DNA of 64,000 nt from an uncultured Candidatus Saccharibacteria bacterium (lineage in GTDB: Bacteria > Patescibacteriota > Minisyncoccia > Phycocordibacterales > CAIZLB01), in the NCBI GenBank assembly GCA_964368945.1, contig CAYJDM010000004.1, positions 8,577 through 72,576 of the forward strand, read 5' to 3'. Under the pieces are notes generated by a model, which saw nothing but the letters and a program-made list of their open reading frames with translations, did no database searches and was not told the origin of the DNA. The translations under genes were made by a program, and so were the position numbers. This document shows, one piece after another, positions 25,519-63,536 of the stretch. Each line of letters opens with the position of its first letter. Position 1 is the stretch's first letter.

Positions 25519-25564
25519 ATGTCAACAACACAATTATACCCAGATTCCCATTTCAATAATCTGA

Positions 25565-26803: not shown

Positions 26804-27186
26804 TTGAAAAGTTTGAGTGCGTCCTTGAGAATTTCCTTTTGTTGAGCATTCAGCTCAGTTTTCTTTTGCACCTTTCGTATCAGGTCTCTCTTGTCCTCAG
26901 ACATGAAGCGATGGTGGTTGTTCTTGAGCCACAGAGCAATCGCCTGATATTTCTTCTCTCTGATGAGAGCAATGAGATGAGCTTCGGACATATCGTTTAT
27001 GTTCTCCACGCCATCGACCTTGGCGTTATCAACGTTTGCCTTGAAGTCTTCGTCTTCATTGCACCAGCGGTAGAACGTGGCTCGTGAGATTCCACCTTTC
27101 TTGCATGCCACTTCCACAATCGGAACGGTACGCAGATGCTCCAGCAGAACTTCCTTCTGCTTTTTTATCTTCAGATCTACTGCCAT
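26800..27186 (-). CDS. phage terminase small subunit-like HTH protein
   Basis: 128 aa with HTH (GGISRATFYRWCNED). It overlaps and lies immediately upstream of the large-subunit gene. Confidence 0.5.
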   Translation of the reverse strand: MAVDLKIKKQKEVLLEHLRTVPIVEVACKKGGISRATFYRWCNEDEDFKANVDNAKVDGVENINDMSEAHLIALIREKKYQAIALWLKNNHHRFMSEDKRDLIRKVQKKTELNAQQKEILKDALKLFK

Positions 27187-27188
27187 GA

Positions 27189-28511
27189 CTAGCTTATTTT
27201 CTTACGCTTCTTGCCAGTCTCTTTCTCCCAGCGATTCATGATGACTTCTGCATAGACGTGAGACTTTTCCATGATGAAGCAACGACGACCCATCTTCACT
27301 GATGCAATGAGTGTGCTTCCACTTCCTCCAAATGGTTCGAGGATGAGGTCGTCTCTCTTTGTAAGGACTTTGAGATACGGTACGAGGAGTTCGATCGGCT
27401 TCGTACCGAATATAATCTCCTGTCCAGAAGACTTCTTGTCTGCGGCGGTATGCGAGATGAAGTCCGTGGGACAAATTTTCTTTCCTTTCTCGTATGGCTC
27501 GAAGTGCGGATGTCCTGACGTTGCGAAGATGGCATTCTCGTACTCGTTTTGAAACAATCCTTCTTCTGGTTCGAGGTTTAGATCTACTTCTCCCGAAGTA
27601 CCGACAAGGGCGATATCAGTCTTGTTGAAGAACTTGTTTGAAGCTGAGAATCCCTGCATCCGATTTGGCACATGCCACGTTATCGTATTGCGATATTTCC
27701 AGTGAACTTCGAGTGCGTTCCAGATGGTGCGAAGGTTCTTCGGATTCTCGAAGATGATTATCGAGAAGTCAGGTTTTTGCACCTTAGCGACGTTTGCCAT
27801 CCAGAGATCTGAAAAGTTCTCAGGCAACACATCTGTTTCCAGATAGCGACGATTCTTCTTTGAACCGAATCCGACAGTTGGACCATCCTTTCCTCGACCT
27901 TTACCTTTGAGATAATCGAGGATATACGGAGGGTCAGTTAGCACCATGTCCGCTTTGTTTTCTCCCATGAGTTTGAGCATATCTGCCTCGACGGTCGAGT
28001 CACCAATCATCAATCGTGAGCCGTCGAGATCGTATACTTCGCCTTTCTTTGCATCGACTGTGATATCAAGCTTTTCGAGTTCCTTTTGGAGATCAAACTG
28101 TTCCTCGTTCTTTTCCATTGGGAAGATATCGTCAATATCCTCAGACGTGAATCCGATATCGAGGAGCATCGAGCTGTCGAACTCGGCGAGCATATCAAGA
28201 TCAAACTCTCCTTGGTTTCGATTGAGTCTGAGATTGAGTTCTGCTTCTTTTTCTGGTGTGAGATTCACGAACACGACTGGCATATTCTTGTATCCCAACT
28301 CTTTGCACGCTTCCACACGGAAATGACCTCCAACGATGACGTTCATTCTTTCCTCGTGCGTGTTCACGATTATCGGATCGACATTGCCGAACCGATTGAT
28401 ACTTTCCTTGAGCTGTTTCTTTTGCTCGTCCGTCCACTTGCGTGGGTTCTTGTCGTTTGCGACGAGACTGTCGATTGAGACGTACTCAATCTTTAGATTT
28501 TCTTTGTTCAT
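27189..28511 (-). CDS. ParB-like nuclease domain fused to DNA (N6-adenine/N4-cytosine) methyltransferase
   Basis: N-terminal ParB/Srx motif (NPRKW...GGHFRVEA). Methyltransferase motif IV DPPY (VLTDPPYI) and motif I FGGSGST near the C-terminus. This is a typical phage arrangement next to terminases. Confidence 0.75.
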   Translation of the reverse strand: MNKENLKIEYVSIDSLVANDKNPRKWTDEQKKQLKESINRFGNVDPIIVNTHEERMNVIVGGHFRVEACKELGYKNMPVVFVNLTPEKEAELNLRLNRNQGEFDLDMLAEFDSSMLLDIGFTSEDIDDIFPMEKNEEQFDLQKELEKLDITVDAKKGEVYDLDGSRLMIGDSTVEADMLKLMGENKADMVLTDPPYILDYLKGKGRGKDGPTVGFGSKKNRRYLETDVLPENFSDLWMANVAKVQKPDFSIIIFENPKNLRTIWNALEVHWKYRNTITWHVPNRMQGFSASNKFFNKTDIALVGTSGEVDLNLEPEEGLFQNEYENAIFATSGHPHFEPYEKGKKICPTDFISHTAADKKSSGQEIIFGTKPIELLVPYLKVLTKRDDLILEPFGGSGSTLIASVKMGRRCFIMEKSHVYAEVIMNRWEKETGKKRKKIS

Positions 28512-28932
28512 ATACTTTCTAGATAGTTAGTGAGTAATCTAGAAGCAACAAAAAACCGCCTACGATATCAAAGTTATCTTTAATACCAAAGGCGGGTTCT
28601 CGTTTCTATATTTATCGACCTGAACAATAGAAAGACCTTTAACCTTTGGGGGTTAAAAATATTTCTATTGCCAGAATGGTCACCTTCGCCAGTCCACTAT
28701 CATGAGATAGTTTCTGAAGTTTCTTCCATTTAAGCTACGTTGCATAGAACTTTAACTAAGGATGCTTGCATTAATCCATCTTAGCCGTTTTTAGATATGG
28801 GTGATGTATTGGTGCTTCTGTGAGTATTTTAGCACAAAACTCAATACAGCAAGTGTCTTTTTTGAGACAAATACGTGTCACTTTCAAAAACCGCTATGTT
28901 TCAAAGTGATTTAGGTAATTGACTGTTGATAA

Positions 28933-29802
28933 CTATTTCCAAAAAGCGAACCTCTTGAAGAATCCGAACACTTTCTGCACGAATGTCTCTTTTAGCGGTT
29001 CAGGTGTCTTTACCTCCTCAACTACAGGAGCTTCGACTACTGAAGTCGTGGTAGATTCCACTTTTACTTCTGGCTTCGACTCTATCTTCTTGATTGTCTC
29101 AGTTTTCTTTTGAACGGCGGTAGTAGGCACAATCTTTGGAGCTACTGTCTCAGTTGCTTGTGAGAAAAATTCAGGATGTTTTACTCTATAGATATCCTCA
29201 ATCTTTTTGTAGTTCTCAGGATTCATCGACTTAAGGAGATTCAGTTGGGCAGACCATTCGTCGGGAGGTAGTGTCTCAAGCCAGTCGTATAAATCGTAGA
29301 TGGTAGCTGATGACTTTGGAATCTCAGTCGCTCTTTCGTACTCGGCAGTCTGCATGTCGTATTCGAGCTGTTTGATTTTCAGTTTCAGCTCGGCAATCTC
29401 TGCTTCTTTTGCATTAGTGTCTGACTGAGATTGATACGATGACTTCTGTGATTCGAGTTCGCTTATCTGCGATGCGTATTTTGCGGTTATCTCGGCAACC
29501 TTTGCGTCTGCTTGGTTTGAGATTCCACTTTGTGCGTAGAGACCACGGATGTAGTTTATCTCCGCATCTCGCTCTGACTTTAATTCAGATATTCGGGCGT
29601 TGATAGTACTGATTGAAGCCGATGGATTATTCGACAGTTGCGACTCAAGACTTCTTAATCGATATTCTAAAGCCGACAGTGCTTCCTTTTGTTTTATCCC
29701 AACATCAGCTGGGAGATAATTGTAATCTGTTGCGTGTGCGATTGATGCTTGGAATACAAAGATTCCTAGCACGAACACACATGTTCGTAATTTATTTTTC
29801 AT
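28933..29802 (-). CDS. secreted coiled-coil protein (hypothetical)
   Basis: Signal peptide followed by a long heptad-rich region and a Pro/Glu/Lys-rich tail. Confidence 0.4.
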   Translation of the reverse strand: MKNKLRTCVFVLGIFVFQASIAHATDYNYLPADVGIKQKEALSALEYRLRSLESQLSNNPSASISTINARISELKSERDAEINYIRGLYAQSGISNQADAKVAEITAKYASQISELESQKSSYQSQSDTNAKEAEIAELKLKIKQLEYDMQTAEYERATEIPKSSATIYDLYDWLETLPPDEWSAQLNLLKSMNPENYKKIEDIYRVKHPEFFSQATETVAPKIVPTTAVQKKTETIKKIESKPEVKVESTTTSVVEAPVVEEVKTPEPLKETFVQKVFGFFKRFAFWK

Positions 29803-30177
29803 AAGCCACTGTAGCGGTTTTAGCCTATTAATTTAATAATAGACGAAGAATCTTGAGTCGTGAGACAGAAGACTCCTCGCCATTGTGATCCAACCTTTCG
29901 GTCAGACCCATATACCCTTTCGGGTACACGACCGCTACAGTGACTCTGACGAGGAGTCTTCTATACTGTAGCGGTTTTATATTCCGACCATATCCTAAGG
30001 AAACTAAGCGTTTTCTAAGGGGTTAGGTCTTTGTTGTATGTGTACATGATAGCAAAAATCGAGCTATCTATCTAGACTCTAGCTTAGATTCGGAGCCTTG
30101 CGAAGCATCGGTTACCAACAGCTGAATTTGAAGACTATGCGGTATCTAAAAGGGCTCAATTTTAGTAAAATAGAAAT

Positions 30178-30777
30178 ATGGGAGACTGCTTAAGTACAAT
30201 GGATATAATCACAATAGTAACCTCAATTGCAACACTTATTGCACTTGGCTTTACTGTATACCAAGCTCGACTCACAAGAGATACTCTTTTAGAAACCAAA
30301 AAGAGTATTGATCAAGAAAAAGTTAACCGTCAGATATCTCTACTTCCAAAATTTGAATACATTATCGAGGTGGATGTCGAACTAATGCATTGGCAAGAGG
30401 AATTGGAAACAAGAAGTAAGAAACTTAAGGAAGCATTCGCAAGAAAGGATTCTAAAATCTTGGAAGATCTATCTAAAACAAAGACGAAAAATCCAAGCGA
30501 CTTGAGACTTTCAAGATATCAATATGAGAAGATGCCCGATTGGCTTTCTCAGCTATGGCTTTCAGGAGCACAATACTATTACGACGCTATGGCATCAATG
30601 CAATTTTTGTATAAGGATGATAAAGGAGAATTCGGTCTAGCGGAAATGCTCTATCAGAGATGTGACGGCAGTGCATACTCAATAAAAGAATTGCGCGCTT
30701 ATATTTCTGGAATGATACCTGAAGTTATTCTTGAGACTCCTGCCAGTACAAGAAATAGTGAGTTTTTTAGAGACTAA
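30178..30777 (+). CDS. hypothetical membrane-anchored protein (island cargo)
   Basis: N-terminal TM helix (IITIVTSIATLIALGFTV). No known motif. Confidence 0.4.
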   Translation: MGDCLSTMDIITIVTSIATLIALGFTVYQARLTRDTLLETKKSIDQEKVNRQISLLPKFEYIIEVDVELMHWQEELETRSKKLKEAFARKDSKILEDLSKTKTKNPSDLRLSRYQYEKMPDWLSQLWLSGAQYYYDAMASMQFLYKDDKGEFGLAEMLYQRCDGSAYSIKELRAYISGMIPEVILETPASTRNSEFFRD

Positions 30778-30867
30778 ACAACAGAGTTTAGAGGAGAAAA
30801 GTTACCAACTTAATGGGTCTAGGACGCTCTAGACTCCTAGAGCGATCAGCGTCATCAATGTAGTTGT

Positions 30868-32187
30868 ATGAAAATACAAAAACCGCTACAAGTGACTCCT
30901 GACGAGGTCGTACCAATTAAGTACTGTCTCTATGCTCGCAAATCAACGGAGCAAGAAGATAAGCAAGCATTATCAATAGAATCGCAGGTTAAAGAGATGA
31001 TAAGTCTCGCCGAGCGAGAGGGTTTAAAAATAGTCGAAATCAAGCGTGAATCGCACTCCTCTAAGGAGGTTGGGCAAAGACCGGTATATAACGAGCTGAT
31101 CAATGAAATCAGGCAAGGTAAATTCAACGGTATCCTGACATGGGCACCTGATCGCCTATCGAGAAATGCTGGTGATCTTGGATCGGTCGTAGACCTGATG
31201 GATCAGAAGCTTCTACACGAAATTCGGACTTATGGACAGAAGTTCACGAACAATCCAAATGAGAAGTTCTTGCTCATGATTCTCGGATCACAAGCAAAGC
31301 TTGAGAACGACAACAAGATGGTAAACGTGAAGCGAGGACTTCGAGCGAGATGTGAGATGGGCTTATGGCCATCAGTGCCTCCAACCGGATATCTGAGCCA
31401 TTCAGACAGGAACAAGAAGTGTGAGGTGGTGTTGGACGAACAAAGGAGTCATGTGATAAAGCTGATGTTTGAGAAGGTAGCCTATGATGGTTGGTCGGGA
31501 CGAAAGCTATTCAAATGGTTGGCTGAGGATATACGATTCAAGACCAAACACGGAAAGCCCCTGACACTGAGTAATGTGTATATCATTCTCAAAAGCACCT
31601 TCTACTACGGTGAATTTGAATATCCAAAAGAAAGCGGACAATGGTATGTCGGAAAGCACGAGCCGATAATCACCAAAGATTTATATAACCAAGTGCAAGA
31701 CAAGATAAATAATGATCATCTGACGCGGACTCAAGATAAAGAGTTCGCTTTTACCAAGATGATAACCTGCGGACTCTGTGGATCAGGCATAACCGCTGAC
31801 GAGAAATTCAAGAAGCTCAAAGATGGTACGACAAATCGCTACGTCTACTATGGATGCACGAAGTTTAAAGACAAGGACTGCCCTTGCGGGTACATCCGAG
31901 AGGAAGATCTAATTGAGCAACTAGCAATGGTTCTAGATACAATTTCGCTGGACGAGATCGGAATGAAAGACAGGATCAAGACTGAGATTGAATCACATAA
32001 TGAATTCCAAGAATCAGTACTGGGGCGAGAGGTCAAAGAGAAAGTGAAGATAAAGGAAGTAGACATCAGAAACTACGCAAAACACATACTAAGAAAAAGA
32101 CCGCTGTACGAAAAACGAGAACTATTAAGTCATCTGAGAAGCAAGTTGGTACTGAAAGAAAAGATACTCAGTGTGATCAAGAATTAA
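30868..32187 (+). CDS. large serine recombinase (resolvase/invertase-type catalytic domain plus recombinase domain and zinc ribbon)
   Basis: Catalytic YARKSTEQED serine motif near the N-terminus, a recombinase domain, and Cys-rich CGLCGS...YYGCTKFKDKDCPCGY. Confidence 0.8.
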   Translation: MKIQKPLQVTPDEVVPIKYCLYARKSTEQEDKQALSIESQVKEMISLAEREGLKIVEIKRESHSSKEVGQRPVYNELINEIRQGKFNGILTWAPDRLSRNAGDLGSVVDLMDQKLLHEIRTYGQKFTNNPNEKFLLMILGSQAKLENDNKMVNVKRGLRARCEMGLWPSVPPTGYLSHSDRNKKCEVVLDEQRSHVIKLMFEKVAYDGWSGRKLFKWLAEDIRFKTKHGKPLTLSNVYIILKSTFYYGEFEYPKESGQWYVGKHEPIITKDLYNQVQDKINNDHLTRTQDKEFAFTKMITCGLCGSGITADEKFKKLKDGTTNRYVYYGCTKFKDKDCPCGYIREEDLIEQLAMVLDTISLDEIGMKDRIKTEIESHNEFQESVLGREVKEKVKIKEVDIRNYAKHILRKRPLYEKRELLSHLRSKLVLKEKILSVIKN

Positions 32188-34730
32188 CGAAGCCTTCTCT
32201 GTAGACTTTCTTTGAGCTTACCAATTTCTTTCTTTGCAGCAGGCGCAATCTCAAACATCGAGACATCATTCGCCAAGAGCCATTCTATACACTCTTTTCT
32301 TCCAAGATTGATATCTCCAACATACTGTGACAATTCAATGGCAGTGTGTCTACTCAGACCGAGATTAATGAGGGATATTTGAGTCCTCTGCGAAACACCG
32401 AACTCAACCCACATGTTCAACTGTGGTACAGATTCTAGGAGTTCAGGGTGTTCGTTGCCAAGATAGTATTTGAGAATATCTATGTAACAAGAAGAATATT
32501 TTGCAAATTTGAATCTAACATACTCCTCAATATCGCTCATCGTATCTCGGATGATTTTGGAGAGCTTTCTACGTGGCTCTTTTCTGCCCCAATATGTGAT
32601 GTTGGATCTGATGATTCGTGCAAGTGGATATCCATTCATCCAGTTGATTACCAATATTGCATGGTACGGAGCAAGACCCTCATGATCACCCGAGAGAATC
32701 TTGCTTATCCTTTTAATGATCGCAACATAGTGACCTAGAGCCGCGTCTTCTGTGTCTGGTAAAACAGGAATGAGATTTTTGACATCCTTGTCATAGTTCT
32801 TGAAATACTCTAAAAGCTTTTGCTGGGCGACAGGGCTGATACCAGGGTTTCTGTAAACGATATCCTCAGGAACTTCTAAGGTTTCCTTTACCCTCGCACA
32901 CTCAGCCTCAAGCTCAGCTATGTAACTCGCTTCCAAAGGCTCTCCTTGAAGATTTTGATTTTTGAGAAACTTTGTAAAGTAGTAACTGAATGCGTATTCG
33001 AGATTGGGCTTGAACGATCCTTCTGAAGTGCCTTTTATGTAATCCAGAAGATCCTCTCGGCTTTCAGATATTTCAGCAATAGCTCTTTTTATAAAATGCT
33101 TTGTCTTTTCCCTGACAGGCTTATTATCCCATTCTTCAGGATCAATACAGACGATATTTCCTTGGAACTCTTTCTTTAAGCGACCTGCTCTACCCGCAAG
33201 GTTCCAGAAGTCAGACTCTGTCATCGGCAATCGATTACCTCTCTTTGGCTTCCTGATAAAGATAGACTTAGCAGGAAGATTCACACCCTCAAGCAGAGTT
33301 GAGGTGCAGACTAAGTATTTTATGTGACCCTCTGTATAGAGCCTCTCAATCTCTTTTCTGATAACCAACGGCATGTTGCCATAATGAAACGCAATCTTTC
33401 TCTTCAAGACCTTAGCTAGCAGATAGTCTGTATGTATCAACTTTTTGGTTAGGTCGATAAGCTCCTCTATTTCATCATCTTCAGTTTCCTGTGATTCACC
33501 AACAAGGTCAAAGAGTTTTTCTGACACATCTTCAGCGTCAGCCTGTCCGTTTACGTAAATCATGTTACCGCCATCTTCAGACCCAAGCATATGACAAAAC
33601 ATAGGGAGCTTATCTTTTTCTCCAAGAATATCCCTGGTGCTAAGCGTTCCAAGGTTTATAGAGTATGTCTTTAGGCAGAGATCAATACTCCACTGACGAG
33701 GATGTCCTGATGCTTGAGAGACCCACACAAGGTTCTGATTAACCGCAACGTACTCTGTGACGATTGTCGATTTTCTTTCAGGATTGGGTAAACCATCGAG
33801 GAGTATCTCTGGATTCTGTGAAAATGGACTACAGAACAGCATCTTAAGATCAGGTAAACGGCTGACCAGTTCCTCAATCTTTTGTTGTAGTAAAACACCT
33901 CTTCCTCCATCACCAATCTTATGAGCCTCATCAACGATAAGGAAATCAATTCGGTAGTCCTTGTTCTCGTTGAGAAACCAGTGCAATCTCTCTTGGGTGA
34001 AGATGAGAAGACTCGGCTTGCTTCCGTCTTCATCGTCAGGCAGTTGAGGTACAGAACTAAGATATACGGAGTGATTGTCGTTTTTAAAAAGCTGATCCGA
34101 AAAATCCTGCTCTACCTGATTAATCAACGCTCTTGTTGGCACAAGATATACAATATTCTTTGGATTTCCCAAATCGCTCAACTGCTCCAAAACAAAGGTA
34201 TTTAAAATAAAAGACTTTCCAGAAGATGTTGGGGCGGATGCACTTACATAACTAGAAGCGTGAGCTTTATCGTAAAAATCCTTTTGAAACTTATTAAGAT
34301 AAATTGGTTCATTAGTGTCTTTCGTGAACACGATATGTTCAACATCTCGTTGTGTATTTTCCATCTGGAATGGCAGAGGGATGTCACTCTCATAGTCAGC
34401 TGGCAAATGCTCTTTTTTGAGAGCAAGTTCTATGGCAGGTCTATTGGTGAGCTTGTGAAATATCACTGAGGATGCAACCCTCTGATTTTTAGTGGTATCA
34501 GGATGAGTAAGACAGCATTGTGCAATTCTCAAGGCGGCATCCTGACAGTCTGGATTATCTGAATGAGCCAGAGCACTCGCACACATCAAAAGATGATTCC
34601 AGTTCACAGAAGAAAATAGATCATCCTGCTGATTCAGGGCTGGAAAAAGCCTTGTTACTGAATATTTAATAACCTTCAATAGATCCCTTTGGAAACTAAC
34701 TAAATTGTATATTTTTTCAGGAAGGTTCAT
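32184..34730 (-). CDS. SF2 DExD/H helicase, candidate HamB-like defence helicase
   Basis: Motif I APTSSGKS, motif II VDEAHKI, motif VI AGRAGR. 848 aa. It overlaps the upstream partner gene by 14 nt. Confidence 0.6.
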   Translation of the reverse strand: MNLPEKIYNLVSFQRDLLKVIKYSVTRLFPALNQQDDLFSSVNWNHLLMCASALAHSDNPDCQDAALRIAQCCLTHPDTTKNQRVASSVIFHKLTNRPAIELALKKEHLPADYESDIPLPFQMENTQRDVEHIVFTKDTNEPIYLNKFQKDFYDKAHASSYVSASAPTSSGKSFILNTFVLEQLSDLGNPKNIVYLVPTRALINQVEQDFSDQLFKNDNHSVYLSSVPQLPDDEDGSKPSLLIFTQERLHWFLNENKDYRIDFLIVDEAHKIGDGGRGVLLQQKIEELVSRLPDLKMLFCSPFSQNPEILLDGLPNPERKSTIVTEYVAVNQNLVWVSQASGHPRQWSIDLCLKTYSINLGTLSTRDILGEKDKLPMFCHMLGSEDGGNMIYVNGQADAEDVSEKLFDLVGESQETEDDEIEELIDLTKKLIHTDYLLAKVLKRKIAFHYGNMPLVIRKEIERLYTEGHIKYLVCTSTLLEGVNLPAKSIFIRKPKRGNRLPMTESDFWNLAGRAGRLKKEFQGNIVCIDPEEWDNKPVREKTKHFIKRAIAEISESREDLLDYIKGTSEGSFKPNLEYAFSYYFTKFLKNQNLQGEPLEASYIAELEAECARVKETLEVPEDIVYRNPGISPVAQQKLLEYFKNYDKDVKNLIPVLPDTEDAALGHYVAIIKRISKILSGDHEGLAPYHAILVINWMNGYPLARIIRSNITYWGRKEPRRKLSKIIRDTMSDIEEYVRFKFAKYSSCYIDILKYYLGNEHPELLESVPQLNMWVEFGVSQRTQISLINLGLSRHTAIELSQYVGDINLGRKECIEWLLANDVSMFEIAPAAKKEIGKLKESLQRRLR

Positions 34731-35700
34731 AGCTTATTCCGAGTGCCTCTAAAAAATGCTTCCTAAATTCTTCTACTGAGGGAAAAGGCAGAAGAAACAC
34801 ATGGATATCAAATGTGTTCAAGTTTGTATGTTTGGAAATCTGACCTATCACGCTTGTTGACCATGCTTCAATTTCCGCTTGTATCTTCGCTTTGATTTGT
34901 TCCGTCGTTTCGCTATTTGCGACCGCAGGATACTTGTCGTAATCAAAACCTATAAGACAAACACCTTTGTAGTTAACCTGATTGTGAAGAGGGTCATCTT
35001 TATCAAGATATTTCAAAATCACTGTCCCAAGCCTTTCATCAATAACATCAAGATTGCCTCTGAGGAGCTGGAGATCTCTTTCAGCGGGAGCATCTTCTCC
35101 TCCGTCAGAGAGTAAGAACTCCTTGAGGCTTTCGAAACAACTTGAGATAGCACCACTCATATCCTTATGCAGTTTCGATTCTCCCCAATACAGAGAAAGG
35201 ATGTCCTGTCCGCTTTCGTTAGTCTCTACGGATACATGTATTCCATCAGCACCGTTTACATGAAGTTCTGAATTTGTTTTCAGGGGCATCTTACAAATCA
35301 GTTGCGGAAGTTTCAAAAATTCTTGTACAAGGATATAAAGAAGCATCTCACCACCTTCACCTGTCTTTTTTAAAGACGTAAACAATGCTTCGGCTTTCTT
35401 TACCAATTGTGTGGTCTTGGTAGAAGTATTGTGCTCACGATCATACTTTTGAGCCTCAGCAAATTCCTTTCTAGGAATAGCGTAATCGGCAACATGCCGT
35501 GCGATAAATCTTGCAAAATCTTTTGTCTGAGGTCTTCCGTTTCCATCTAAAGTAAGAAAGTAGCAGTGGGACACTGCTTTAGTATCTTTTAGATTTACAT
35601 GTGAAATAACCTCAGTTATGTAGCTGTTTATTTCCTGCTCACTGGTTCTAAGGAGTTCAGTGATAAGTTCTGCTAATGTTTTATTATCTTCTGTGTCCAT
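34717..35700 (-). CDS. candidate HamA-like (DUF1837-type) effector with PD-(D/E)xK-like residues
   Basis: 327 aa, translationally coupled to the helicase. D...ExK pattern (GADGIHVSVE...WGESKLHK). The size and gene order match Hachiman type I. Confidence 0.45.
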   Translation of the reverse strand: MDTEDNKTLAELITELLRTSEQEINSYITEVISHVNLKDTKAVSHCYFLTLDGNGRPQTKDFARFIARHVADYAIPRKEFAEAQKYDREHNTSTKTTQLVKKAEALFTSLKKTGEGGEMLLYILVQEFLKLPQLICKMPLKTNSELHVNGADGIHVSVETNESGQDILSLYWGESKLHKDMSGAISSCFESLKEFLLSDGGEDAPAERDLQLLRGNLDVIDERLGTVILKYLDKDDPLHNQVNYKGVCLIGFDYDKYPAVANSETTEQIKAKIQAEIEAWSTSVIGQISKHTNLNTFDIHVFLLPFPSVEEFRKHFLEALGISYEPS

Positions 35701-35701
35701 A

Positions 35702-35890
35702 TTAGTGGTTTATAAGCTTAAGGATGTCCGACTTCTTGTATCGACGATCCTTTCTTGTGCCAAATCGGATAGGCACTAGAATACCCTTCTTGTCCCAATT
35801 CCTTAGAGTATTTGGATGGCAGTTTAAAATCTCACAAGCTTGTTTAAGGCTTAAGATTTCGGGATATTGACTGTAATCGTTTTTAGTCAT
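35702..35890 (-). CDS. excisionase/MerR-family HTH DNA-binding protein
   Basis: 62 aa (LSLKQACEILNCHPNTLRNWDKKGILVPIRFGTRKDRRY), the Xis-type HTH_17 pattern. Confidence 0.55.
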   Translation of the reverse strand: MTKNDYSQYPEILSLKQACEILNCHPNTLRNWDKKGILVPIRFGTRKDRRYKKSDILKLINH

Positions 35891-35931
35891 ATCTTAGACT
35901 TAACATAAGTTAACAACAAAAGCAATCCTAC

Positions 35932-35981
35932 AGAAATCAAAAGACCACCCATGTAGGTGGTCTTTTGATTCTGGATACTGC
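35932..35981. terminator. palindromic hairpin AATCAAAAGACCACC-CATGT-AGGTGGTCTTTTGATT
   Basis: 15-bp perfect inverted repeat between the Xis-like gene and tRNA-Gln. It shares the AAATCAAAAGACC / GGTCTTTTGATT arms with the hairpin at 20650-20699. Confidence 0.45.
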
Positions 35982-36106
35982 ACTCAGCAGGTATGCAATT
36001 TACGGAATAGTATCGTGTGATTTGGGAAAGTTCGAGCCCATGACTGGTTCTCAAAACTCTTCCCCCTAAACAGCCATTTTAGGCGTTTAGGTAGGTCTCA
36101 CATAAC

Positions 36107-59862: not shown

Positions 59863-61242
59863 ATGATCAGATATCTCAAGCCCAAATCAATCGAGCCCGA
59901 CAGGCATAGAAAAGAGCTGATACTGAATACCATACTCGGATTCTGCCTTTTGATGATCTTTCTGTTCCTGATCATGGTTTTGAACAATGATCTCAATGAT
60001 CGCAGCTATATCGGACTGGGATATTTTCTGATTATCATATCCCCTGTCGCCATCGCATATTACCTATCGAGAAAAGGAAGGATCGCCGCTGCGTCATATC
60101 TGACAATCGGATTCTTCTCATTCGGATTGCTGTATACGGCATATAGCTGGGGCGTAATTCTGCCGACGGTATTGCTCGGAATCGCATTCATCAGCACCTG
60201 CACAAGCCTCCTCATCAATAGCCGCGCAGGCTTCGTGTATGCGATCATATCCAGCGCCACGATATTCGCAATACATATAATGCATGCCACCGGAGTCCAT
60301 GCGCCAGATTATTCATGGACGAGCATTGCGCCGGATGCGATGGACATAGCGGAATATTCGATCCTCATCTTATTCATATCCGGAATATCCTGGCTATCGA
60401 ATAAGCAGACGGAAGCTGCGCTGAATCGAGCCAGGTCATCGGAGCATGACCTCAAGATCGAGCGAGATGGGCTGGAATTGAAAGTGATCGAGCGAACCAA
60501 AGCCCTCGAATATGCCCAAATCGAAAAGACCACCGAGATGTATCGATTCGTAGAATTCGGCAAGCTCTCTGCCGGCTTAATCCACGACCTCATGAGTCCC
60601 CTAACGGCTTTATGCATGCAAGCCGATGAGAAGAATTCCGAGACAATGAATTCACTGATCGGTGCCAGCCGCAAGATCCAGGACATCATCCATGCGACGA
60701 GGAATCAGATCAAAGCGGACTACAAAGTCGAAAAGATAATCCTCGCGCAGATTATCGATGAGGCGACCCTGCTTCATCAGAGCAGGATCAAGAAGCTGAA
60801 TATCGATATTCGAAAAAGCATTCCAGCCGGCCTGTATCTGAACGGCAGCCCTTCCCTTTTATCCCATATTCTGACCAATCTGATCAGCAATGCCATAGAT
60901 GCCCTCGATGAGCGAATCAATCATGACAGATCCGCAGGCCAAGATCCCAAGGCAAATCCTCCAACGCTTGAAATCTATGCGATGCGCAATTCGGACCACA
61001 TAAAGATCATCGTTCGCGACAATGGAATCGGGATCCCTGAGAATATCCGCCAGTCCATCTTCGATCCATTCTTTACGACCAAAAAGCATACCGGCTGGGG
61101 CTATGGCCTTTCGGCTTCCAAGCATATAGCCCAGAAGCATTTCGATGGCACTATTTCCATAGAAACCAAGACTTCGCCCAGCGGCCTCAGCAAGACCTCC
61201 TTCAATCTGACGCTTCCTTTGAAAAAAGAAAAAAGCCGCTGA
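59863..61242 (+). CDS. sensor histidine kinase
   Basis: Multiple N-terminal TM helices, HisKA H-box (GLIHDLMSPL) and HATPase_c (N box NAIDAL, DNGIGIP, G boxes). Confidence 0.75.
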   Translation: MIRYLKPKSIEPDRHRKELILNTILGFCLLMIFLFLIMVLNNDLNDRSYIGLGYFLIIISPVAIAYYLSRKGRIAAASYLTIGFFSFGLLYTAYSWGVILPTVLLGIAFISTCTSLLINSRAGFVYAIISSATIFAIHIMHATGVHAPDYSWTSIAPDAMDIAEYSILILFISGISWLSNKQTEAALNRARSSEHDLKIERDGLELKVIERTKALEYAQIEKTTEMYRFVEFGKLSAGLIHDLMSPLTALCMQADEKNSETMNSLIGASRKIQDIIHATRNQIKADYKVEKIILAQIIDEATLLHQSRIKKLNIDIRKSIPAGLYLNGSPSLLSHILTNLISNAIDALDERINHDRSAGQDPKANPPTLEIYAMRNSDHIKIIVRDNGIGIPENIRQSIFDPFFTTKKHTGWGYGLSASKHIAQKHFDGTISIETKTSPSGLSKTSFNLTLPLKKEKSR

Positions 61243-61279
61243 TAGCGACTCTTTTCTACGATTTTGATCTACCTAATTG

Positions 61280-61580
61280 CGCGGCTGATGGGTGCTGACC
61301 CCACGGCCTCTCCCGTGCGTGACTCCTATATTTTCATATAAGTACGGACTATATCTTTACCATATCTGATTACTCAGGGTTAGGTACTCTGGTATCTAGT
61401 CTCTACGGCGCTCTCCCTAAATCAAGATTGATAAAAGGAGTTCCCTCGGTATTCGCATATTACGAGTCATTTGCATGATTCGAACTTAGCCTTCACCGAT
61501 ATCCCAAAGAGTTTCAATCTGCCTTTAAGCAGAAAGCTGCCAATTTACAGGGGAGTGCTCTACCGTTGAGCTACAGCCGC
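61280..61580 (-). tRNA. tRNA-Asp (GUC) interrupted by a group I intron. Exons are 61547-61580 and 61280-61317.
   Basis: 5' exon: GCGGCUG-UA-GCUC-AACGGUA-GAGC-A-CUCCC-CUGU. 3' exon: CAC-GGGAG-AGGCC-GUGGG-GUCAGCA-CCCAU-CAGCCGC-G. The acceptor, anticodon and T stems all pair. The spliced anticodon loop CUGUCAC equals the universal tRNA-Asp loop, and the discriminator is G. The T-loop GUCAGCA is non-canonical. Confidence 0.6.
61318..61546 (-). mobile_element. group I intron (229 nt) inserted between anticodon positions 35 and 36
   Basis: 5' exon ends in U, with GCAG available as the internal guide sequence. Conserved R-like (GUAGAGACUAGAU) and S-like (AAGAUAUAGUCCGUAC) elements are able to form P7. 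The intron ends in omega-G (..GUCACG). Confidence 0.6.
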
Positions 61581-62240
61581 AATTGTGATGAATTTCTCAA
61601 ATATCGCCCTCTTCCGCCCTAGGAAGAGCGGCGAGGTGAGACCATTATACATAAAACTATAGATTTTCAAAGAGTCTACCCTAGAGAATTGAAGCCTATG
61701 GCAGCCAGTTTTGACCGAAAATAAAGACCCTCTGACCCCAAGGATATCCGCCAGACTGGCCTGAATTTGTTCCAAGAAACGTCTTGAACAGGAGGTGAAC
61801 GCCATAAGCATCGCCACAGATGCATGGGAGGTTTTCCTATTATTCATACCTGTCCAGATATTCCCATCCCCATCGAAAAAACCTCGTATAAAATCCCTTA
61901 TAAATCCTGACGGGACAAAAGGCACGGCAATGCTATTGGTTTTATTTAACCAAAACCCCAATCTGTGCAGATCGTCACACATTTCCTTGCTTCCAATTTG
62001 AAGGCGGTATGTTACTCCACCAAAGCCCTTCTTCTCACGAGCCGAGATACGATGATCCGACCCTATACATGAGCGGATTGATTCAAGTAGATCCTTATCT
62101 GCAATTTGGATTGACCAATACTGACTCCCCCGCTTATTCATTGTAATGTATCCATCTGCAGCAAAAAAACCAAGCACATACGCCATATCGGGCGTCCAAG
62201 TCTTGAAAAAATCCTTATTAACTTTTCGCATCATCGGCAT
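61560..62240 (-). CDS. LAGLIDADG homing endonuclease (double-motif)
   Basis: Two LAGLIDADG motifs (LGFFAADGYI and IRGFFDGDGNI) about 100 aa apart. ATG at 62240 with a TATAAT just upstream. The last 7 codons overlap the tRNA-Asp 5' exon. Confidence 0.7.
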   Translation of the reverse strand: MPMMRKVNKDFFKTWTPDMAYVLGFFAADGYITMNKRGSQYWSIQIADKDLLESIRSCIGSDHRISAREKKGFGGVTYRLQIGSKEMCDDLHRLGFWLNKTNSIAVPFVPSGFIRDFIRGFFDGDGNIWTGMNNRKTSHASVAMLMAFTSCSRRFLEQIQASLADILGVRGSLFSVKTGCHRLQFSRVDSLKIYSFMYNGLTSPLFLGRKRAIFEKFITIAAVAQR

Positions 62241-62354
62241 AAGCAGATTATATGCTCGAATGTGTTTTTGAAAATATTGACAAAAGAAAAGCCGCCGGTA
62301 ATTGCCTACCGGCGGCCGCAATCTACGTACTACAGATTCATTCTGAGCCACACA

Positions 62355-63056
62355 TTAATCGTATCGCAATTTTTTCACATCAAGCCCAAATTCCAAATGG
62401 AATATCCCCTCGACCAATTGGCCGGCAGCCCCCTTCTCCTTGACCCAGGCCGAATGACCTGAAAGAAAAGCCTGTACGGTGGCAGCCTGATCTTTTTCCT
62501 GCGTATCGATCACGAGATCGAAACCGACACAATCTTCCCAGAGGCACTTATCGCCATACAGTCGCTTGTAGCGAGGGCTATCATCCTTGAGATCGCGCTT
62601 AGTGACGCGCCTCATAGATTCCTCCTCCGAAATGCCATCCCTTATCGCTATGCGCCGGGCGCATTCTTCGCGAGGGCAAACCAGCAGGACCTTGAAAGCT
62701 CCGGGCATGAGGATATGCGGAAGACGCCCTTCGCATATCACAAAATCCTGGGTGGCGAAGATATTGAGCATCTGATCCATCTCATTATCGATCCCCCATT
62801 CCGGATGCTCGCGATTCTGCTCCGCAAGAATCTCAATCGGAACGCCGCGCTTGGCGGCAACGGCGCGCATGATATCGCCCCCCGAAGGAAACCTGTATGG
62901 AGCCTTCTCAAATTCCCTTTTCAGGGCAGTGAGAAGAGCGCTGCTACCACAGCCAGAGAGCGAAGTGATAGATGCCTGATGTCTGAAAAACTTGCTATTC
63001 ATGTGTTTTTTGATTTGGTGGATTGAGGATATGCGGATTGAACTGAATTTAGACAA
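62355..63056 (-). CDS. cytidylate kinase-like family P-loop protein
   Basis: ITSLSGCGSSALLTALKREF resembles the Cytidylate_kin2 N-terminus. Followed by a strong hairpin plus T-run at ~62285-62320. Confidence 0.4.
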   Translation of the reverse strand: MSKFSSIRISSIHQIKKHMNSKFFRHQASITSLSGCGSSALLTALKREFEKAPYRFPSGGDIMRAVAAKRGVPIEILAEQNREHPEWGIDNEMDQMLNIFATQDFVICEGRLPHILMPGAFKVLLVCPREECARRIAIRDGISEEESMRRVTKRDLKDDSPRYKRLYGDKCLWEDCVGFDLVIDTQEKDQAATVQAFLSGHSAWVKEKGAAGQLVEGIFHLEFGLDVKKLRYD

Positions 63057-63164: not shown

Positions 63165-63238
63165 TGTCGACGGGTGGGATCGAACCACCGACCTGAGGCT
63201 TATGAGTCCTCCGCTCTAACCATCTGAGCTACGTCGAC
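63165..63238 (-). tRNA. tRNA-Met (anticodon CAU; Ile-lysidine not excluded)
   Basis: GUCGACG-UA-GCUC-AGAUGGUUA-GAGC-G-GAGGA-CUCAUAA-GCCUC-AGGUC-GGUGG-UUCGAUC-CCACC-CGUCGAC-A. Canonical arms apart from an A31-G39 mismatch. Confidence 0.75.
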
Positions 63239-63536
63239 GTCCATGTTTTATAACATATCCTGGGCCTAAAATAAAGGCCGCCCAGGCCAGACCCCCGATC
63301 CCCCTTCATTTACTGGCGCAAGACAAAAGCGCGCCTTTCCGGCACGCCTTTGTCTTTGGTCTCTGGCTACTTTGTTGCGGGGCCAAGAATTGCACTTGGT
63401 CATCAAGGTTATGAGCCTTGCATGCAACTGTTACACCTCCCCGCAATTGCATTATCTTTGCTGAATATTACTACGATCGGCCCCAGGACTTGCGCCACTG
63501 AGACCGAAAGCGTTTTACTATATTGACCGAATTCGC

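What the first reader, a model, noticed from the sequence alone, without database searches (positions are those of the whole stretch)
61280..61580. tRNA-Asp(GUC) split by a 229-nt group I intron in the anticodon loop (between U35 and C36)
The 5' and 3' halves of a tRNA lie 229 nt apart on the minus strand. All four stems pair perfectly. Splicing recreates exactly the universal tRNA-Asp anticodon loop CUGUCAC.

The intervening RNA shows group I hallmarks. There is a U at the 5' splice site with a GCAG guide sequence just downstream, R-like GAGACUA and S-like AAGAUAUAGUCC elements forming P7, and a terminal omega-G.

Group I introns in bacterial tRNAs are known for Leu(UAA), fMet, Ile(CAU) and Arg(CCU). 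An intron in tRNA-Asp at position 35/36 would be unusual.

The T-loop of the 3' exon is GUCAGCA rather than UUCRANY, so the gene may also be atypical or decaying.
Basis: partly seen in the sequence, partly recalled or inferred. Interest (0 to 1): 0.75.

Follow-up and report, generated by a model that had tools for sequence, protein, structure and literature searches.

The report
Intron-split tRNA-Asp with flanking homing endonuclease
The window holds a real tRNA-Asp gene interrupted by a self-splicing group I intron, a kind already described in Patescibacteria in 2020-2026, but it sits directly behind a homing-endonuclease gene that nobody appears to have linked to these introns and that comparative data suggest works together with the intron.

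Summary
On the minus strand, tRNA-Asp(GUC) is split between U35 and C36 by a 229-nt ORF-less group I intron (61546-61318). Rfam scores it above its gathering threshold. Covariation across 29 homologous introns supports P1-P9.0. The window copy keeps the core and a terminal G.

The kind is not new. 35/36 introns in tRNA-Asp/Asn of Patescibacteria are published, with in vitro splicing. One published Paceibacteria intron is 68% identical to this one. The odd T-loop is a conserved lineage trait, not decay.

The family occurs in at least 484 species-representative genomes, almost always between tRNA-Met(CAU) and tRNA-Asp, as a presence/absence polymorphism with decayed relics.

In an unbiased sample the intron is about 14-fold enriched next to the endonuclease gene. 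A tRNA-Asp-derived motif (TGGTTAG-N9-CCTGTCAC) precedes most endonuclease genes. Where the functional tRNA matches that motif, endonuclease-carrying genomes nearly always have the intron (24/29, against 2/41 without the endonuclease).

Best reading: a collaborative-homing pair in which the intron splits the enzyme's likely target. This is inferred, not shown.

The parts
61547..61580 (-). tRNA-Asp(GUC) 5' exon, positions 1-35, ending ...CUCCC CUGU
   Evidence: The last four nucleotides pair with the intron guide GCAG to form P1, which is invariant in 29/29 homologues.
61318..61546 (-). Group I intron, 229 nt, no ORF. Helices in window coordinates: P1 61550-61547/61540-61537; P2 61533-61529/61522-61518; P3 61509-61504/61392-61387; P4 61498-61494/61451-61447; P5 with an 11-nt GAAA-receptor motif 61490-61484/61460-61455; P6 61445-61444/61408-61407; P6a 61440-61437/61416-61413; P7 61403-61397/61351-61346; P8 61385-61383/61361-61359; P9.0 61345-61344/61320-61319; P9 with a GAAA loop 61342-61325; omega-G 61318.
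   Evidence: Rfam scores 53.8 bits against a gathering score of 50. Every proposed pair is a standard pair in the window copy. Across 29 homologues, 89.7% of cells are paired against about 40% in the slid controls, and 21 pairs have changes on both sides. Stop codons occur in all three frames.
61280..61317 (-). tRNA-Asp 3' exon, positions 36-73: CAC GGGAG AGGCC GUGGG GUCAGCA CCCAU CAGCCGC G. CCA is not encoded.
   Evidence: The T-loop G54-U55-C56-A57-G58-C59-A60 is conserved in a 73-nt tRNA-Asp lineage.
61560..62240 (-). Free-standing two-domain LAGLIDADG homing-endonuclease gene, 226 aa. The start ATG is at 62240. The stop TAG at 61562-61560 lies in the tRNA D-loop, so the last 7 codons are tRNA sequence.
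   Evidence: Pfam LAGLIDADG_3 (E 1.9e-14) and LAGLIDADG_1 (E 5e-07) match above their cut-offs. Both catalytic motifs, GFFAADGY and GFFDGDGN, are intact, and their core residues including the catalytic aspartates are invariant in the family. An identical 226-aa protein, P0001, is in the database.
62247..62274 (-). Promoter-like site TTTTCA-16-TATAAT. Its -10 box ends 6 nt before the endonuclease ATG, which would give a leaderless or near-leaderless mRNA.
   Evidence: This is a consensus match only. The same geometry, TATAAT-N6-10-ATGCC, recurs across the family.
61227..61257 (-). Intrinsic-terminator-like hairpin plus T-run, about 20 nt after the tRNA 3' end. It would close the endonuclease/tRNA-Asp unit.
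62290..62317 (-). Terminator-like hairpin ending the upstream cytidylate-kinase-like gene. It separates that gene from the endonuclease/tRNA unit.
63165..63238 (-). tRNA-Met(CAU), the conserved upstream anchor of the endonuclease slot. In the window it lies about 920 nt away, because a kinase-like gene (62355-63056) sits in between.
   Evidence: In 65/84 loci the same-strand tRNA-Met lies within 400 nt of the endonuclease start, typically 35-90 nt.

Best explanation
The locus is one compact unit on the minus strand: promoter, LAGLIDADG endonuclease gene, intron-split tRNA-Asp(GUC), terminator. The explanation has three layers with different confidence.

Layer 1, about 0.9. The 229-nt intron is a functional self-splicing group I ribozyme. 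P1 (exon CUGU with intron GCAG, U35-G wobble) presents the 5' splice site to an exogenous guanosine. The terminal G at 61318, positioned by P9.0, then directs exon ligation. This recreates the anticodon loop CUGUCAC. RNase P and 3' processing with CCA addition then finish what is, as far as the window shows, the only tRNA-Asp.

Layer 2, about 0.8. The adjoining LAGLIDADG gene is a free-standing mobile homing-endonuclease gene. It occupies a fixed slot between tRNA-Met(CAU) and tRNA-Asp in many Patescibacteria. It uses the tRNA's own U8-A9-G10 or D-loop TAG as its stop codon. It goes through the usual cycle of invasion, decay and loss.

Layer 3, about 0.5, inferred. The enzyme recognises the tRNA-Asp gene itself, in the segment from the D-loop to the anticodon loop (TGGTTAG-N9-CCTGTCAC). 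A genome that carries the enzyme must therefore protect its own tRNA-Asp. The intron at 35/36 does this by splitting the site. Other genomes do it through sequence or spacing variants. Because the intron lies 34 bp from the endonuclease gene, it is also co-converted whenever the endonuclease gene homes.

This is collaborative (trans) homing: a free-standing endonuclease and an ORF-less intron sharing one target. The decayed tRNA-Asp fragment upstream of most family members carries the promoter -10 box. It may also serve as an uncleavable operator for autorepression. That last point is speculative.
For: Layer 1:
- Rfam scores above its gathering threshold, and ARAGORN calls tRNA-Asp on the spliced product.
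- There are 32 homologous introns at exactly 35/36.
- Covariation is seen in P2, P3, P5, P6a, P8, P9.0 and P9, while P1, P6 and P7 are invariant and P4 varies at only one pair (G-U/G-C).
- The window's atypical 3' end (AC-G) is compensated by GU after P7, so P9.0 stays paired. Only 8 columns deviate from the family's 90% or higher consensus, none in the core.
- The intron is 68% identical to a published Paceibacteria tRNA-Asp intron and 56% identical to the one spliced in vitro (PMC13011429).

Layer 2:
- Pfam matches, and the catalytic motifs are intact.
- At least 484 species-representative genomes encode a relative.
- In 78 loci the gene runs into tRNA-Asp, 46 unsplit and 32 split.
- At least 97/120 database homologues end in translated tRNA-Asp sequence.
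- tRNA-Met lies upstream in 65/84 loci.
- Empty sites are tRNA-Met, 22-80 nt, tRNA-Asp. Truncated copies occur in L119, L124 and L167, and LKLYDFMYN relics in 4/64 'empty' spacers against about 0.07 expected.

Layer 3:
- In a sample selected only on the tRNA 5' half, the counts are: endonuclease-positive 6 with intron and 6 without; endonuclease-negative 4 with intron and 55 without. Odds ratio 13.75, p = 0.001.
- The tRNA-derived motif is present in 62/84 upstream regions against 2% of control windows, at a fixed 17 nt from the start codon.
- Among endonuclease-positive loci, motif-exact tRNAs have the intron in 19/24 cases, and non-matching tRNAs lack it in 39/52. Odds ratio 11.4, p = 1.3e-5.
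- In the unbiased set, motif-exact tRNAs have the intron in 5/5 endonuclease-positive loci against 2/41 endonuclease-negative loci.
- The intron state changes at least 18 times on the endonuclease tree.
- The only endonuclease copy with a destroyed catalytic motif (L054) is one of the five exceptions.
Against: - No cleavage, binding or splicing was measured here. The target site is inferred from a motif and from associations.
- The sequences are phylogenetically related, so the Fisher p-values overstate independence.
- The window's own tRNA is the 73-nt type, whose D-loop (ACGGTAG) does not match the motif. That lineage carries the intron in 10/15 endonuclease-positive genomes in one set but only 1/7 in the other. 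The immunity argument is therefore weakest for this particular locus.
- L020 (no intron) and L081 (intron) have identical mature tRNAs next to intact endonuclease genes.
- Four motif-exact, intron-less loci have apparently intact enzymes.
- Three intron-bearing loci (L090, L122, L151) show no trace of an endonuclease gene.
- The window lacks the upstream tRNA-derived motif.
- P10 is not conserved.
Confidence: 0.6

Rival explanations
1. The two elements are independent neighbours and the intron merely hitchhikes. Under this reading the endonuclease recognises only its own insertion point (the spacer and the 5' edge of tRNA-Asp), so its insertion alone gives immunity. The intron is an unrelated, mostly vertically inherited ribozyme. 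It is enriched next to the endonuclease gene because it lies 34 bp away and is co-converted during homing, or because of shared ancestry.
For: L020 and L081 have identical mature tRNAs, with and without the intron, both beside intact endonuclease genes. Identical anticodon arms occur in split and unsplit genes. 46/78 endonuclease-positive loci have no intron. Three intron-bearing loci show no trace of an endonuclease gene. Co-conversion of flanking markers is a general property of homing (PMC3984707). mobE mobilises a neighbouring intron in T4 (PMC2790892).
Against: This reading does not predict that intron-less endonuclease-positive tRNAs preferentially deviate from TGGTTAG-N9-CTGTCAC (39/52 lack the intron, against only 5/24 among motif-exact tRNAs). 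It does not predict the 5/5 against 2/41 contrast for motif-exact alleles. It also does not explain why a tRNA-Asp-derived D-loop and anticodon-loop motif is conserved upstream of the endonuclease gene.
Confidence: 0.25
2. The LAGLIDADG protein is a domesticated host factor, for example a maturase that helps the intron fold, or a tRNA-operon regulator. It is no longer a mobile nuclease. It is retained because the tRNA-Asp transcription unit depends on it.
For: The protein is strongly conserved, at 45-65% identity, with intact ORFs in hundreds of species. It is co-transcribed with an essential tRNA. LAGLIDADG maturases of group I introns are an established class (background knowledge).
Against: More than half of the loci have no intron to mature. 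Most tRNA-Asp loci sampled without bias lack the gene altogether, 59/71. Truncated copies and relics show that it is dispensable. Both catalytic aspartates are kept in 75/76 copies, whereas dedicated maturases often lose them (background knowledge).
Confidence: 0.08
3. The locus is a decaying or non-functional tRNA-Asp pseudogene, disabled by the insertion and by an aberrant T-loop, with the working tRNA-Asp located elsewhere in the genome.
For: The T-loop lacks the canonical T54 and A58. Only 64 kb of the genome is visible, so a second copy cannot be excluded.
Against: The same T-loop is conserved in about 15 species-level genomes and many metagenome contigs, in genes with and without the intron. 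All stems are intact. The intron core is intact, with a compensatory change in P9.0. No other tRNA-Asp is found in the window. The literature reports that such genes are usually the sole copy (PMC13011429).
Confidence: 0.03

Closest known systems
Group I introns at position 35/36 of tRNA-Asp(GUC)/tRNA-Asn(GUU) in Patescibacteria (Nakagawa et al., mSystems 2026, PMC13011429; type first listed by Williams 2020, bioRxiv 10.1101/2020.01.27.920355)
   Same: The host tRNA, the insertion point (CUGU|CAC), the U at -1 and the terminal G are all the same. The intron has no ORF and a comparable length; theirs range from 184 to 894 nt with a mean of 257. The window's intron is 68% identical, with a near-identical core, to their Paceibacteria tRNA-Asp intron (GCA_023898525.1). 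It is 56% identical to the Microgenomatia intron they spliced in vitro. Standard tRNA finders miss the gene, as they reported.
   Different: That study looked for endonuclease genes only inside introns, and concluded that mobility is limited. Here an intact LAGLIDADG gene abuts the 5' exon and is statistically linked to the intron. They assign none of the Patescibacteria tRNA introns to subgroup IC, and class 25 of the 28 introns at 35/36 across all bacteria as IA. This intron has no room for P7.1/P7.2: there are 4 nt between P7 and P3' and 1 nt between P3' and P8. It also has the P5 receptor and L9 GAAA layout that I associate with IC3. I did not test this with subgroup models.
Collaborative / trans homing: F-CphI with the psbA intron of cyanophage S-PM2 (Zeng, Bonocora & Shub 2009), and T4 mobE with the nrdB intron (PMC2790892); reviewed in PMC3984707
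   Same: A free-standing endonuclease gene lies next to a gene carrying an ORF-less (or endonuclease-defective) group I intron. The proposed endonuclease target overlaps the intron insertion site, so the intron protects its own allele and is mobilised in trans. Presence and absence vary among relatives.
   Different: The known cases are in phages, involve protein-coding genes, and use Endo VII-like or HNH enzymes. Here the host is a cellular bacterium, the gene is a tRNA, and the enzyme is a LAGLIDADG protein. The endonuclease ORF overlaps the tRNA. A tRNA-derived motif is built into the endonuclease promoter region. The pair is seen in dozens of species, which allows statistics. Cleavage specificity has not been measured here.
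Classical bacterial tRNA group I introns: Azoarcus tRNA-Ile(CAU), and cyanobacterial tRNA-Leu(UAA), tRNA-fMet and tRNA-Arg(CCU)
   Same: [quoted passage not shown] The core sequences GUAGAGACUAGA and AAGAUAUAGUCC are shared (the Rfam consensus alignment). L9 is a GAAA tetraloop and P5 carries an 11-nt receptor-like motif (the comparison with Azoarcus rests on my own recollection).
   Different: The tRNA and the insertion position (35/36) differ. The direct sequence comparison with Azoarcus could not be run, because the sequence is not in the accessible text.
LAGLIDADG homing endonucleases in rRNA introns of Patescibacteria (cited in PMC13011429) and characterised single-chain enzymes such as I-HjeMI (PDB 3uvf)
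   Same: It has a two-domain, single-chain LAGLIDADG architecture with both catalytic motifs.
   Different: It is not intron-encoded. It is only remotely related to any solved enzyme; the best PDB match has E = 0.004 over 60 residues.

Membership tests
Group I intron (Rfam RF00028) | The covariance-model score reaches the curated gathering threshold. | tested here: met
   53.8 bits against 50, E 7e-11. The homologue in L006 scores 42.9 bits, below the threshold.
Group I intron (Rfam RF00028) | P1 contains the 5' splice site, with a U-G wobble to an internal guide sequence. | tested here: met
   Exon CUGU pairs with intron GCAG in 29/29 sequences. The pairing is invariant, so it is conserved but shows no covariation.
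Group I intron (Rfam RF00028) | A conserved core P3-P8 including the P3/P7 pseudoknot, supported by covariation. | tested here: met
   89.7% of cells are paired against 36-43% in the slid controls. 21 pairs have changes on both sides, against 5-11 in the controls. P3, P5, P6a and P8 covary, while P6 and P7 are invariant and P4 varies at only one pair.
Group I intron (Rfam RF00028) | A terminal guanosine (omega-G) at the 3' splice site. | tested here: met
   G at 61318. A terminal G is present in 32/32 homologues. P9.0 next to it covaries, and the window copy carries a double compensatory change.
Group I intron (Rfam RF00028) | Guanosine-dependent self-splicing. | not testable with these tools
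   Shown in vitro for a 56%-identical tRNA-Asp intron (GCA_001029755.1) in PMC13011429. Not shown for this sequence.
Patescibacteria tRNA-Asp(GUC) 35/36 introns (PMC13011429) | Insertion between positions 35 and 36 of a tRNA-Asp(GUC), restoring CUGUCAC on splicing. | tested here: met
Patescibacteria tRNA-Asp(GUC) 35/36 introns (PMC13011429) | Sequence homology to a published member. | tested here: met
   68% identity over 216 aligned positions to the GCA_023898525.1 intron, with the core blocks identical.
Patescibacteria tRNA-Asp(GUC) 35/36 introns (PMC13011429) | The host is a member of Patescibacteria. | tested here: inconclusive
All named endonuclease homologues and the closest tRNA-Asp relatives are Paceibacteria/Parcubacteria MAGs.
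Patescibacteria tRNA-Asp(GUC) 35/36 introns (PMC13011429) | Subgroup IA, the class the paper gives for 25 of the 28 introns at 35/36 across bacteria; it assigns none of the Patescibacteria tRNA introns to IC. | tested here: inconclusive
   No subgroup models were available. The structure leaves no space for P7.1/P7.2 and has an IC3-like periphery. Three variant loci (L035, L061, L072) do carry an insertion after P7.
LAGLIDADG homing endonuclease | Two LAGLIDADG motifs with conserved catalytic acidic residues in a single chain. | tested here: met
   Pfam PF14528 scores 54.1 bits (cut-off 22.5) and PF00961 scores 31 bits (cut-off 23.1). GFFAADGY and GFFDGDGN are present, and the aspartates are conserved in 75/76 copies.
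LAGLIDADG homing endonuclease | Site-specific double-strand DNA cleavage leaving 4-nt 3' overhangs. | not testable with these tools
   No biochemical data are available, and there is no close solved relative.
LAGLIDADG homing endonuclease | Behaviour as a mobile element: presence/absence polymorphism at a fixed site, and degenerate copies. | tested here: met
   12/71 loci are occupied in the unbiased sample. Truncated copies and short relics are present.
Collaborative (trans) homing pair | [quoted passage not shown] | tested here: met
   The endonuclease stop codon lies 13 nt upstream of the 5' splice site. The intron has stop codons in all frames.
Collaborative (trans) homing pair | [quoted passage not shown] | not testable with these tools
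   Support is indirect only: the tRNA-derived TGGTTAG-N9-CCTGTCAC motif upstream of the endonuclease gene, and the dependence of intron presence on whether the tRNA matches that motif.
Collaborative (trans) homing pair | Statistical association of intron and endonuclease across genomes. | tested here: met
   Odds ratio 13.75, p = 0.001 in a sample selected on neither element. No phylogenetic correction was applied.

The most novel reading that the evidence does not exclude
A widespread, previously unreported natural collaborative-homing system in cellular bacteria. A free-standing LAGLIDADG endonuclease targets the tRNA-Asp gene (the D-loop to anticodon-loop segment). It lives as the tRNA's 5' leader, so that RNase P rather than an intron or intein removes it from the host RNA. 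It carries a decayed copy of its own target as promoter or operator. [quoted passage not shown] If so, the Patescibacteria tRNA-Asp introns are not immobile relics. They would be one half of a two-part mobile element, and a living intermediate in the proposed pathway by which mobile introns form.
Probability: 0.45. Interest if true: 0.75.

Novelty: new variant of a known kind. Interest (0 to 1): 0.6.

Why it matters
The intron alone adds one more member to a class already described and shown to splice.

The context is what is new. The published survey concluded that tRNA introns in Patescibacteria mostly lack homing endonucleases and therefore move little. Here the tRNA-Asp intron is about 14-fold enriched next to an intact, widespread LAGLIDADG gene that lies just outside the intron, where that survey did not look.

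If the enzyme does target the tRNA-Asp gene, this would be the first collaborative-homing pair outside phages, and the first in a tRNA gene. It has dozens of natural replicates showing occupied, intron-protected, variant-protected, decaying and empty states. [quoted passage not shown]

There are also practical points:
- tRNA-Asp is missed by standard tRNA finders, which affects completeness estimates for these genomes.
- The endonuclease ORF overlaps the tRNA, so annotation pipelines will tend to call one or the other.
- A new LAGLIDADG specificity against a highly conserved 24-bp tRNA segment could interest enzyme engineers.

Tried and rejected
- ARAGORN with intron detection (-i0,400) on the unspliced locus found nothing. 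Brute-force splicing was needed instead.
- The Rfam alignment places P1/P2 wrongly, 68 nt upstream of the tRNA inside the endonuclease ORF. I replaced it with a manual model tested by covariation.
- P10 (3' exon CA with the UG 5' of the guide) pairs in the window and three relatives only: 0-19% of cells are paired across the family. I dropped it as a family feature.
- The organism could not be identified. Look-ups for TypA and the endonuclease returned only short unnamed Logan contigs, and the cluster look-up carried no name.
- I first favoured a model in which the endonuclease target is only its own insertion point at the tRNA 5' edge. The reasons were that identical anticodon arms, and one pair of identical mature tRNAs (L020/L081), occur with and without the intron. 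The motif analysis shifted the weight. L020 and L081 are both of the 73-nt type that already deviates from the motif, so they are not a clean counter-example. That model is kept as the main rival.
- I rejected the idea that the upstream TGGTTAG-N9-CCTGTCAC motif is an ordinary tRNA-Asp promoter element present in all spacers. In endonuclease-free spacers, the only matches to the relaxed pattern are the neighbouring tRNA-Met genes.
- The pseudogene/decay reading of the T-loop was rejected.
- A direct alignment to the Azoarcus IC3 intron could not be made, because the sequence is not in the accessible text of PMC13168695. The IC3 resemblance therefore rests on architecture and on my recollection.
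- The PDB sequence search gave no useful relative for the endonuclease.
- I did not check whether the three published tRNA-Asp intron genomes carry the endonuclease gene upstream.
Full report
**1. The observation**

All coordinates are on the minus strand.
- The 5' half of the tRNA is at 61580-61547: GCGGCUG UA GCUC AACGGUA GAGC A CUCCC CUGU.
- The 3' half is at 61317-61280: CAC GGGAG AGGCC GUGGG GUCAGCA CCCAU CAGCCGC G.
- They are separated by 229 nt (61546-61318).

Each half is unique in the window, and none is expected by chance even with three mismatches. ARAGORN does not call the locus, even when allowed introns. It does call the in-silico spliced sequence as a 73-nt tRNA-Asp(GUC) with all four stems paired; the T stem includes one G-U.

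Rfam's group I model matches at 53.8 bits against a gathering score of 50. Its placement of P1/P2 is wrong: it starts 68 nt upstream of the tRNA.

**2. The intron is a well-formed group I ribozyme**

I collected homologous loci (see section 4). Brute-force splicing then found 32 tRNA-Asp genes split at exactly 35/36 by introns of 194-253 nt. Twenty-nine of them align well with the window's intron. Three (L035, L061, L072) are a divergent variant with an insertion after the P7 5' strand.

I proposed a full secondary structure, P1 to P9 plus P9.0. Every pair is a standard pair in the window copy. Across the 29 sequences:
- 89.7% of cells are paired, against 36-43% when partners are slid by 1-3 columns.
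- 21 pairs show changes on both sides, against 5-11 in the slid controls.
- P2 (5/5 pairs), P3, P5, P6a, P8, P9.0 (2/2) and P9 covary.
- P1, P6 and P7 are invariant, and P4 varies at only one pair (G-U/G-C).
- P10 is not conserved.

The window's unusual 3' end (…AC-G where the family has …GU-G) is matched by GU instead of AC just after P7. P9.0 therefore stays paired, which supports the 3' splice site at 61318. The window copy departs from the family's 90% or higher consensus at only eight columns, none in the core. The intron has stop codons in all three frames.

In architecture it has P2, a short P5 with an 11-nt receptor-like motif (GCUAAG/UAUGC), a GAAA loop on P9, and no room for P7.1/P7.2. 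To my knowledge that is the layout of IC3 tRNA introns. I could not run subgroup models or align to Azoarcus.

**3. The kind is already known**

Williams (bioRxiv 10.1101/2020.01.27.920355) raised the number of tRNA settings for group I introns from 4 to 21.

Nakagawa et al. (mSystems 2026, PMC13011429) reported the following:
- Standard tools miss them.
- A tRNA-Asp intron self-splices precisely in vitro.
- Only 12 of 333 bacterial tRNA introns encode an endonuclease. From this they inferred limited mobility.

Their supplementary table gives the sequences. The Paceibacteria tRNA-Asp intron (GCA_023898525.1) is 68% identical to the window's, with identical core blocks. The Microgenomatia intron that was spliced in vitro is 56% identical.

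**4.

The ORF at 62240-61560, on the same strand, is a two-domain LAGLIDADG endonuclease (Pfam PF14528 and PF00961). Its stop codon is the TAG in the tRNA D-loop, 13 nt before the 5' splice site.

The signals around it are as follows:
- A terminator-like hairpin ends the upstream kinase-like gene.
- A promoter-like site has its -10 box ending 6 nt before the ATG.
- The next terminator on this strand follows the tRNA 3' exon.

The endonuclease and the tRNA therefore look like one transcription unit. An internal ATGTATAAT box near 61650 could also drive the tRNA on its own.

The protein family is large. More than 1,100 database clusters match, and all named ones are Patescibacteria. Both catalytic motifs are invariant. 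At least 484 species-representative genomes encode a relative.

The position of the gene is highly consistent:
- In 78 loci with a callable tRNA, the gene runs into tRNA-Asp(GUC): 46 unsplit and 32 split at 35/36. In most, the stop codon is the tRNA's own U8-A9-G10.
- At least 97 of 120 database homologues end in a peptide that is simply translated tRNA-Asp acceptor strand, for example -L-R-S* or -A-V-V-A*.
- Upstream, a same-strand tRNA-Met(CAU) lies within 400 nt in 65 of 84 loci, typically 35-90 nt away.
- In the window, a cytidylate-kinase-like gene has been inserted between tRNA-Met and the endonuclease gene.

**5. The endonuclease gene behaves as a mobile element and is linked to the intron**

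I spent the one metagenome scan on a pattern for the tRNA-Asp 5' half. That pattern selects on neither element. All 80 loci returned were tRNA-Asp(GUC). Among the 71 that could be classified:

| | intron | no intron |
|---|---|---|
| endonuclease gene present (12 loci) | 6 | 6 |
| endonuclease gene absent (59 loci) | 4 | 55 |

The odds ratio is 13.75 and Fisher p = 0.001.

Empty sites are tRNA-Met, 22-80 nt, tRNA-Asp. Truncated endonuclease copies occur in L119, L124 and L167. Four of 64 'empty' spacers still encode the family's LKLYDFMYN motif, against about 0.07 expected by chance. One of those four (L160) carries the intron. This is the classic invasion, decay and loss cycle.

**6. A clue to the target**

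Upstream of the endonuclease start, 62 of 84 loci carry GGTTAG-N9-CTGTCA with three or fewer mismatches. Only 2% of control windows do, and most of those are real tRNA-Met genes. In 37 loci the motif ends exactly 17 nt before the start codon.

The consensus is TGGTTAG-TATAATATC-CTGTCACG-NGG-TATAAT. It reproduces the tRNA-Asp D-loop and anticodon loop with the tRNA's exact 9-nt spacing. The stems in between have been replaced by a -10-like box. Homology ends at about tRNA position 38/39, four nucleotides from the intron site. The motif has the 75-nt-type D-loop even in loci whose functional tRNA is the 73-nt type, so it appears to travel with the endonuclease gene.

Two conserved blocks of 7-8 bp flanking a degenerate centre, about 24 bp in all, is the size and layout of a LAGLIDADG site (background knowledge). 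I read the motif as a decayed copy of the enzyme's target that now hosts the promoter.

**7. Testing that reading**

If the enzyme recognises TGGTTAG-N9-CCTGTCAC in tRNA-Asp, a genome that carries the enzyme must protect its own gene. The counts fit.

Among endonuclease-positive loci:
- tRNAs that match the motif exactly carry the intron in 19 of 24 cases.
- tRNAs that deviate lack the intron in 39 of 52 cases. The deviations are an extra D-arm nucleotide, TGGTTAA, T32, and the 73-nt ACGGTAG type.
- The odds ratio is 11.4 and p = 1.3e-5.

In the unbiased set, motif-exact tRNAs carry the intron in 5 of 5 endonuclease-positive loci, but in only 2 of 41 endonuclease-negative loci.

Three further observations agree:
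- Intron state changes at least 18 times on the endonuclease tree.
- In discordant nearest-neighbour pairs, the intron-bearing member is usually the motif-exact one.
- The only one of 76 endonuclease copies with a destroyed catalytic motif (L054) is among the five exceptions.

Simple hitchhiking by co-conversion predicts the endonuclease-intron link. It does not predict the dependence on the motif.

**8. Caveats**

- Nothing here measures cleavage, binding or splicing.
- The sequences are related, so the p-values are optimistic.
- The window's own tRNA belongs to the 73-nt lineage, which already deviates from the motif in the D-loop. That lineage shows intermediate intron frequencies: 10/15 in one set and 1/7 in the other.
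- L020 and L081 have identical mature tRNAs with and without the intron.
- Four motif-exact, intron-less loci have apparently intact enzymes.
- Three intron-bearing loci show no trace of the endonuclease gene.
- The window lacks the upstream motif, because the kinase-like gene replaced that region.

For these reasons I give about 0.9 to the intron, about 0.8 to the mobile endonuclease gene, and about 0.5 to the shared-target/immunity mechanism.

**9. The T-loop**

The loop G54-U55-C56-A57-G58-C59-A60 recurs, with a shortened D-loop (AACGGUA), in about 15 species-level genomes and at least 15 metagenome contigs. It occurs in genes with and without the intron. It is a lineage trait of a 73-nt tRNA-Asp, not decay. 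No second tRNA-Asp is present in the window.

**10. Comparison and verdict**

The intron is a new member of the published Patescibacteria tRNA-Asp 35/36 class.

The endonuclease-intron arrangement works like the collaborative or trans homing described for two phage systems (PMC3984707, PMC2790892). It differs in four ways: the host is a cellular bacterium, the gene is a tRNA, the enzyme is a LAGLIDADG protein, and the endonuclease gene forms the tRNA's 5' leader. I found no report of it in the searchable literature.

Overall this is a new variant of a known kind. Interest is moderate to high because of the context, not because of the intron itself.

Noticed in passing
window 61280-61317 (-); also L008, L009, L011, L012, L015, L020, L025-L027, L030, L033, L052, L078, L081 and many of L088-L167: A 73-nt tRNA-Asp lineage has a non-canonical T-loop, G54-U55-C56-A57-G58-C59-A60, which lacks the T54-A58 pair. 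It also has a shortened D-loop (AACGGUA). Variants AUCAUCA and AUCAACA also occur. How such a tRNA forms its elbow is unexplained.
   Followed up: partly
window 63375-63445 (-): A second CAU-anticodon tRNA is found by Rfam (49 bits) but missed by ARAGORN. Its D-arm is atypical, with no GG in the D-loop, and its T-loop is UGCAAUU. So unusual tRNA elbows are not limited to tRNA-Asp in this genome.
   Followed up: partly
window about 61648-61660 (-); L102, L161, L112, L160 spacers: The endonuclease family's invariant F-M-Y-N codons read TTT ATG TAT AAT, which is a -10-like box about 70 nt upstream of tRNA-Asp. In 'empty' sites the only surviving relic of the endonuclease gene is this stretch. In L102 and L161 it sits 8-9 nt before the tRNA start, as if it were kept as the tRNA promoter.
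   Followed up: partly
L058, L094, L111, L123, L034, L010, L114, L052, L061, L072 (20-40 nt upstream of the tRNA-derived motif): Perfect or near-perfect DnaA-box sequences (TTATCCACA / TGTGGATAA) recur just upstream of the endonuclease promoter region.
   Followed up: no
L035:1036-1294, L061:3207-3469, L072:1294-1557: A divergent variant of the tRNA-Asp 35/36 intron shares P1, P7 and P9, but has a different P3-P6 region and a 30-40-nt insertion after GAGACUA, possibly P7.1/P7.2. Two intron types may therefore occupy the same site.
   Followed up: no
L007:3753-3945: About 170 nt downstream of an intron-less tRNA-Asp there is a second copy of the tRNA's last 21 nt (TCAAATCCCATCGACCGCGCA). It looks like the scar of an element integrated at the tRNA 3' end.
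   Followed up: no
window 62355-63056 (-): A cytidylate-kinase-like/AAA gene sits between tRNA-Met and the endonuclease gene, where most relatives have a spacer of only 35-90 nt carrying the tRNA-derived motif. In the window that motif is absent.
   Followed up: partly
L003:2559-2780 (also L004, L005): A 73-aa GIY-YIG-domain ORF lies among the tRNA genes just upstream of the LAGLIDADG gene. It is a second nuclease family in the same tRNA array.
   Followed up: no
window 29887-30029 (-): There is an Rfam LOOT RNA match above the gathering score, 50.9 against 46.4 bits.
   Followed up: no
window 8000-16000 versus 22000-36000: Composition is strongly heterogeneous. The first stretch has 55-58% G+C with GC skew near -0.29. 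The second has about 40% G+C.
   Followed up: no
L049 (labelled Nitrospira sp.), L067 (labelled Azotimanducaceae): Short contigs carrying the endonuclease/tRNA-Asp cassette are binned into non-Patescibacteria MAGs. This is probably mis-binning rather than true hosts.
   Followed up: no
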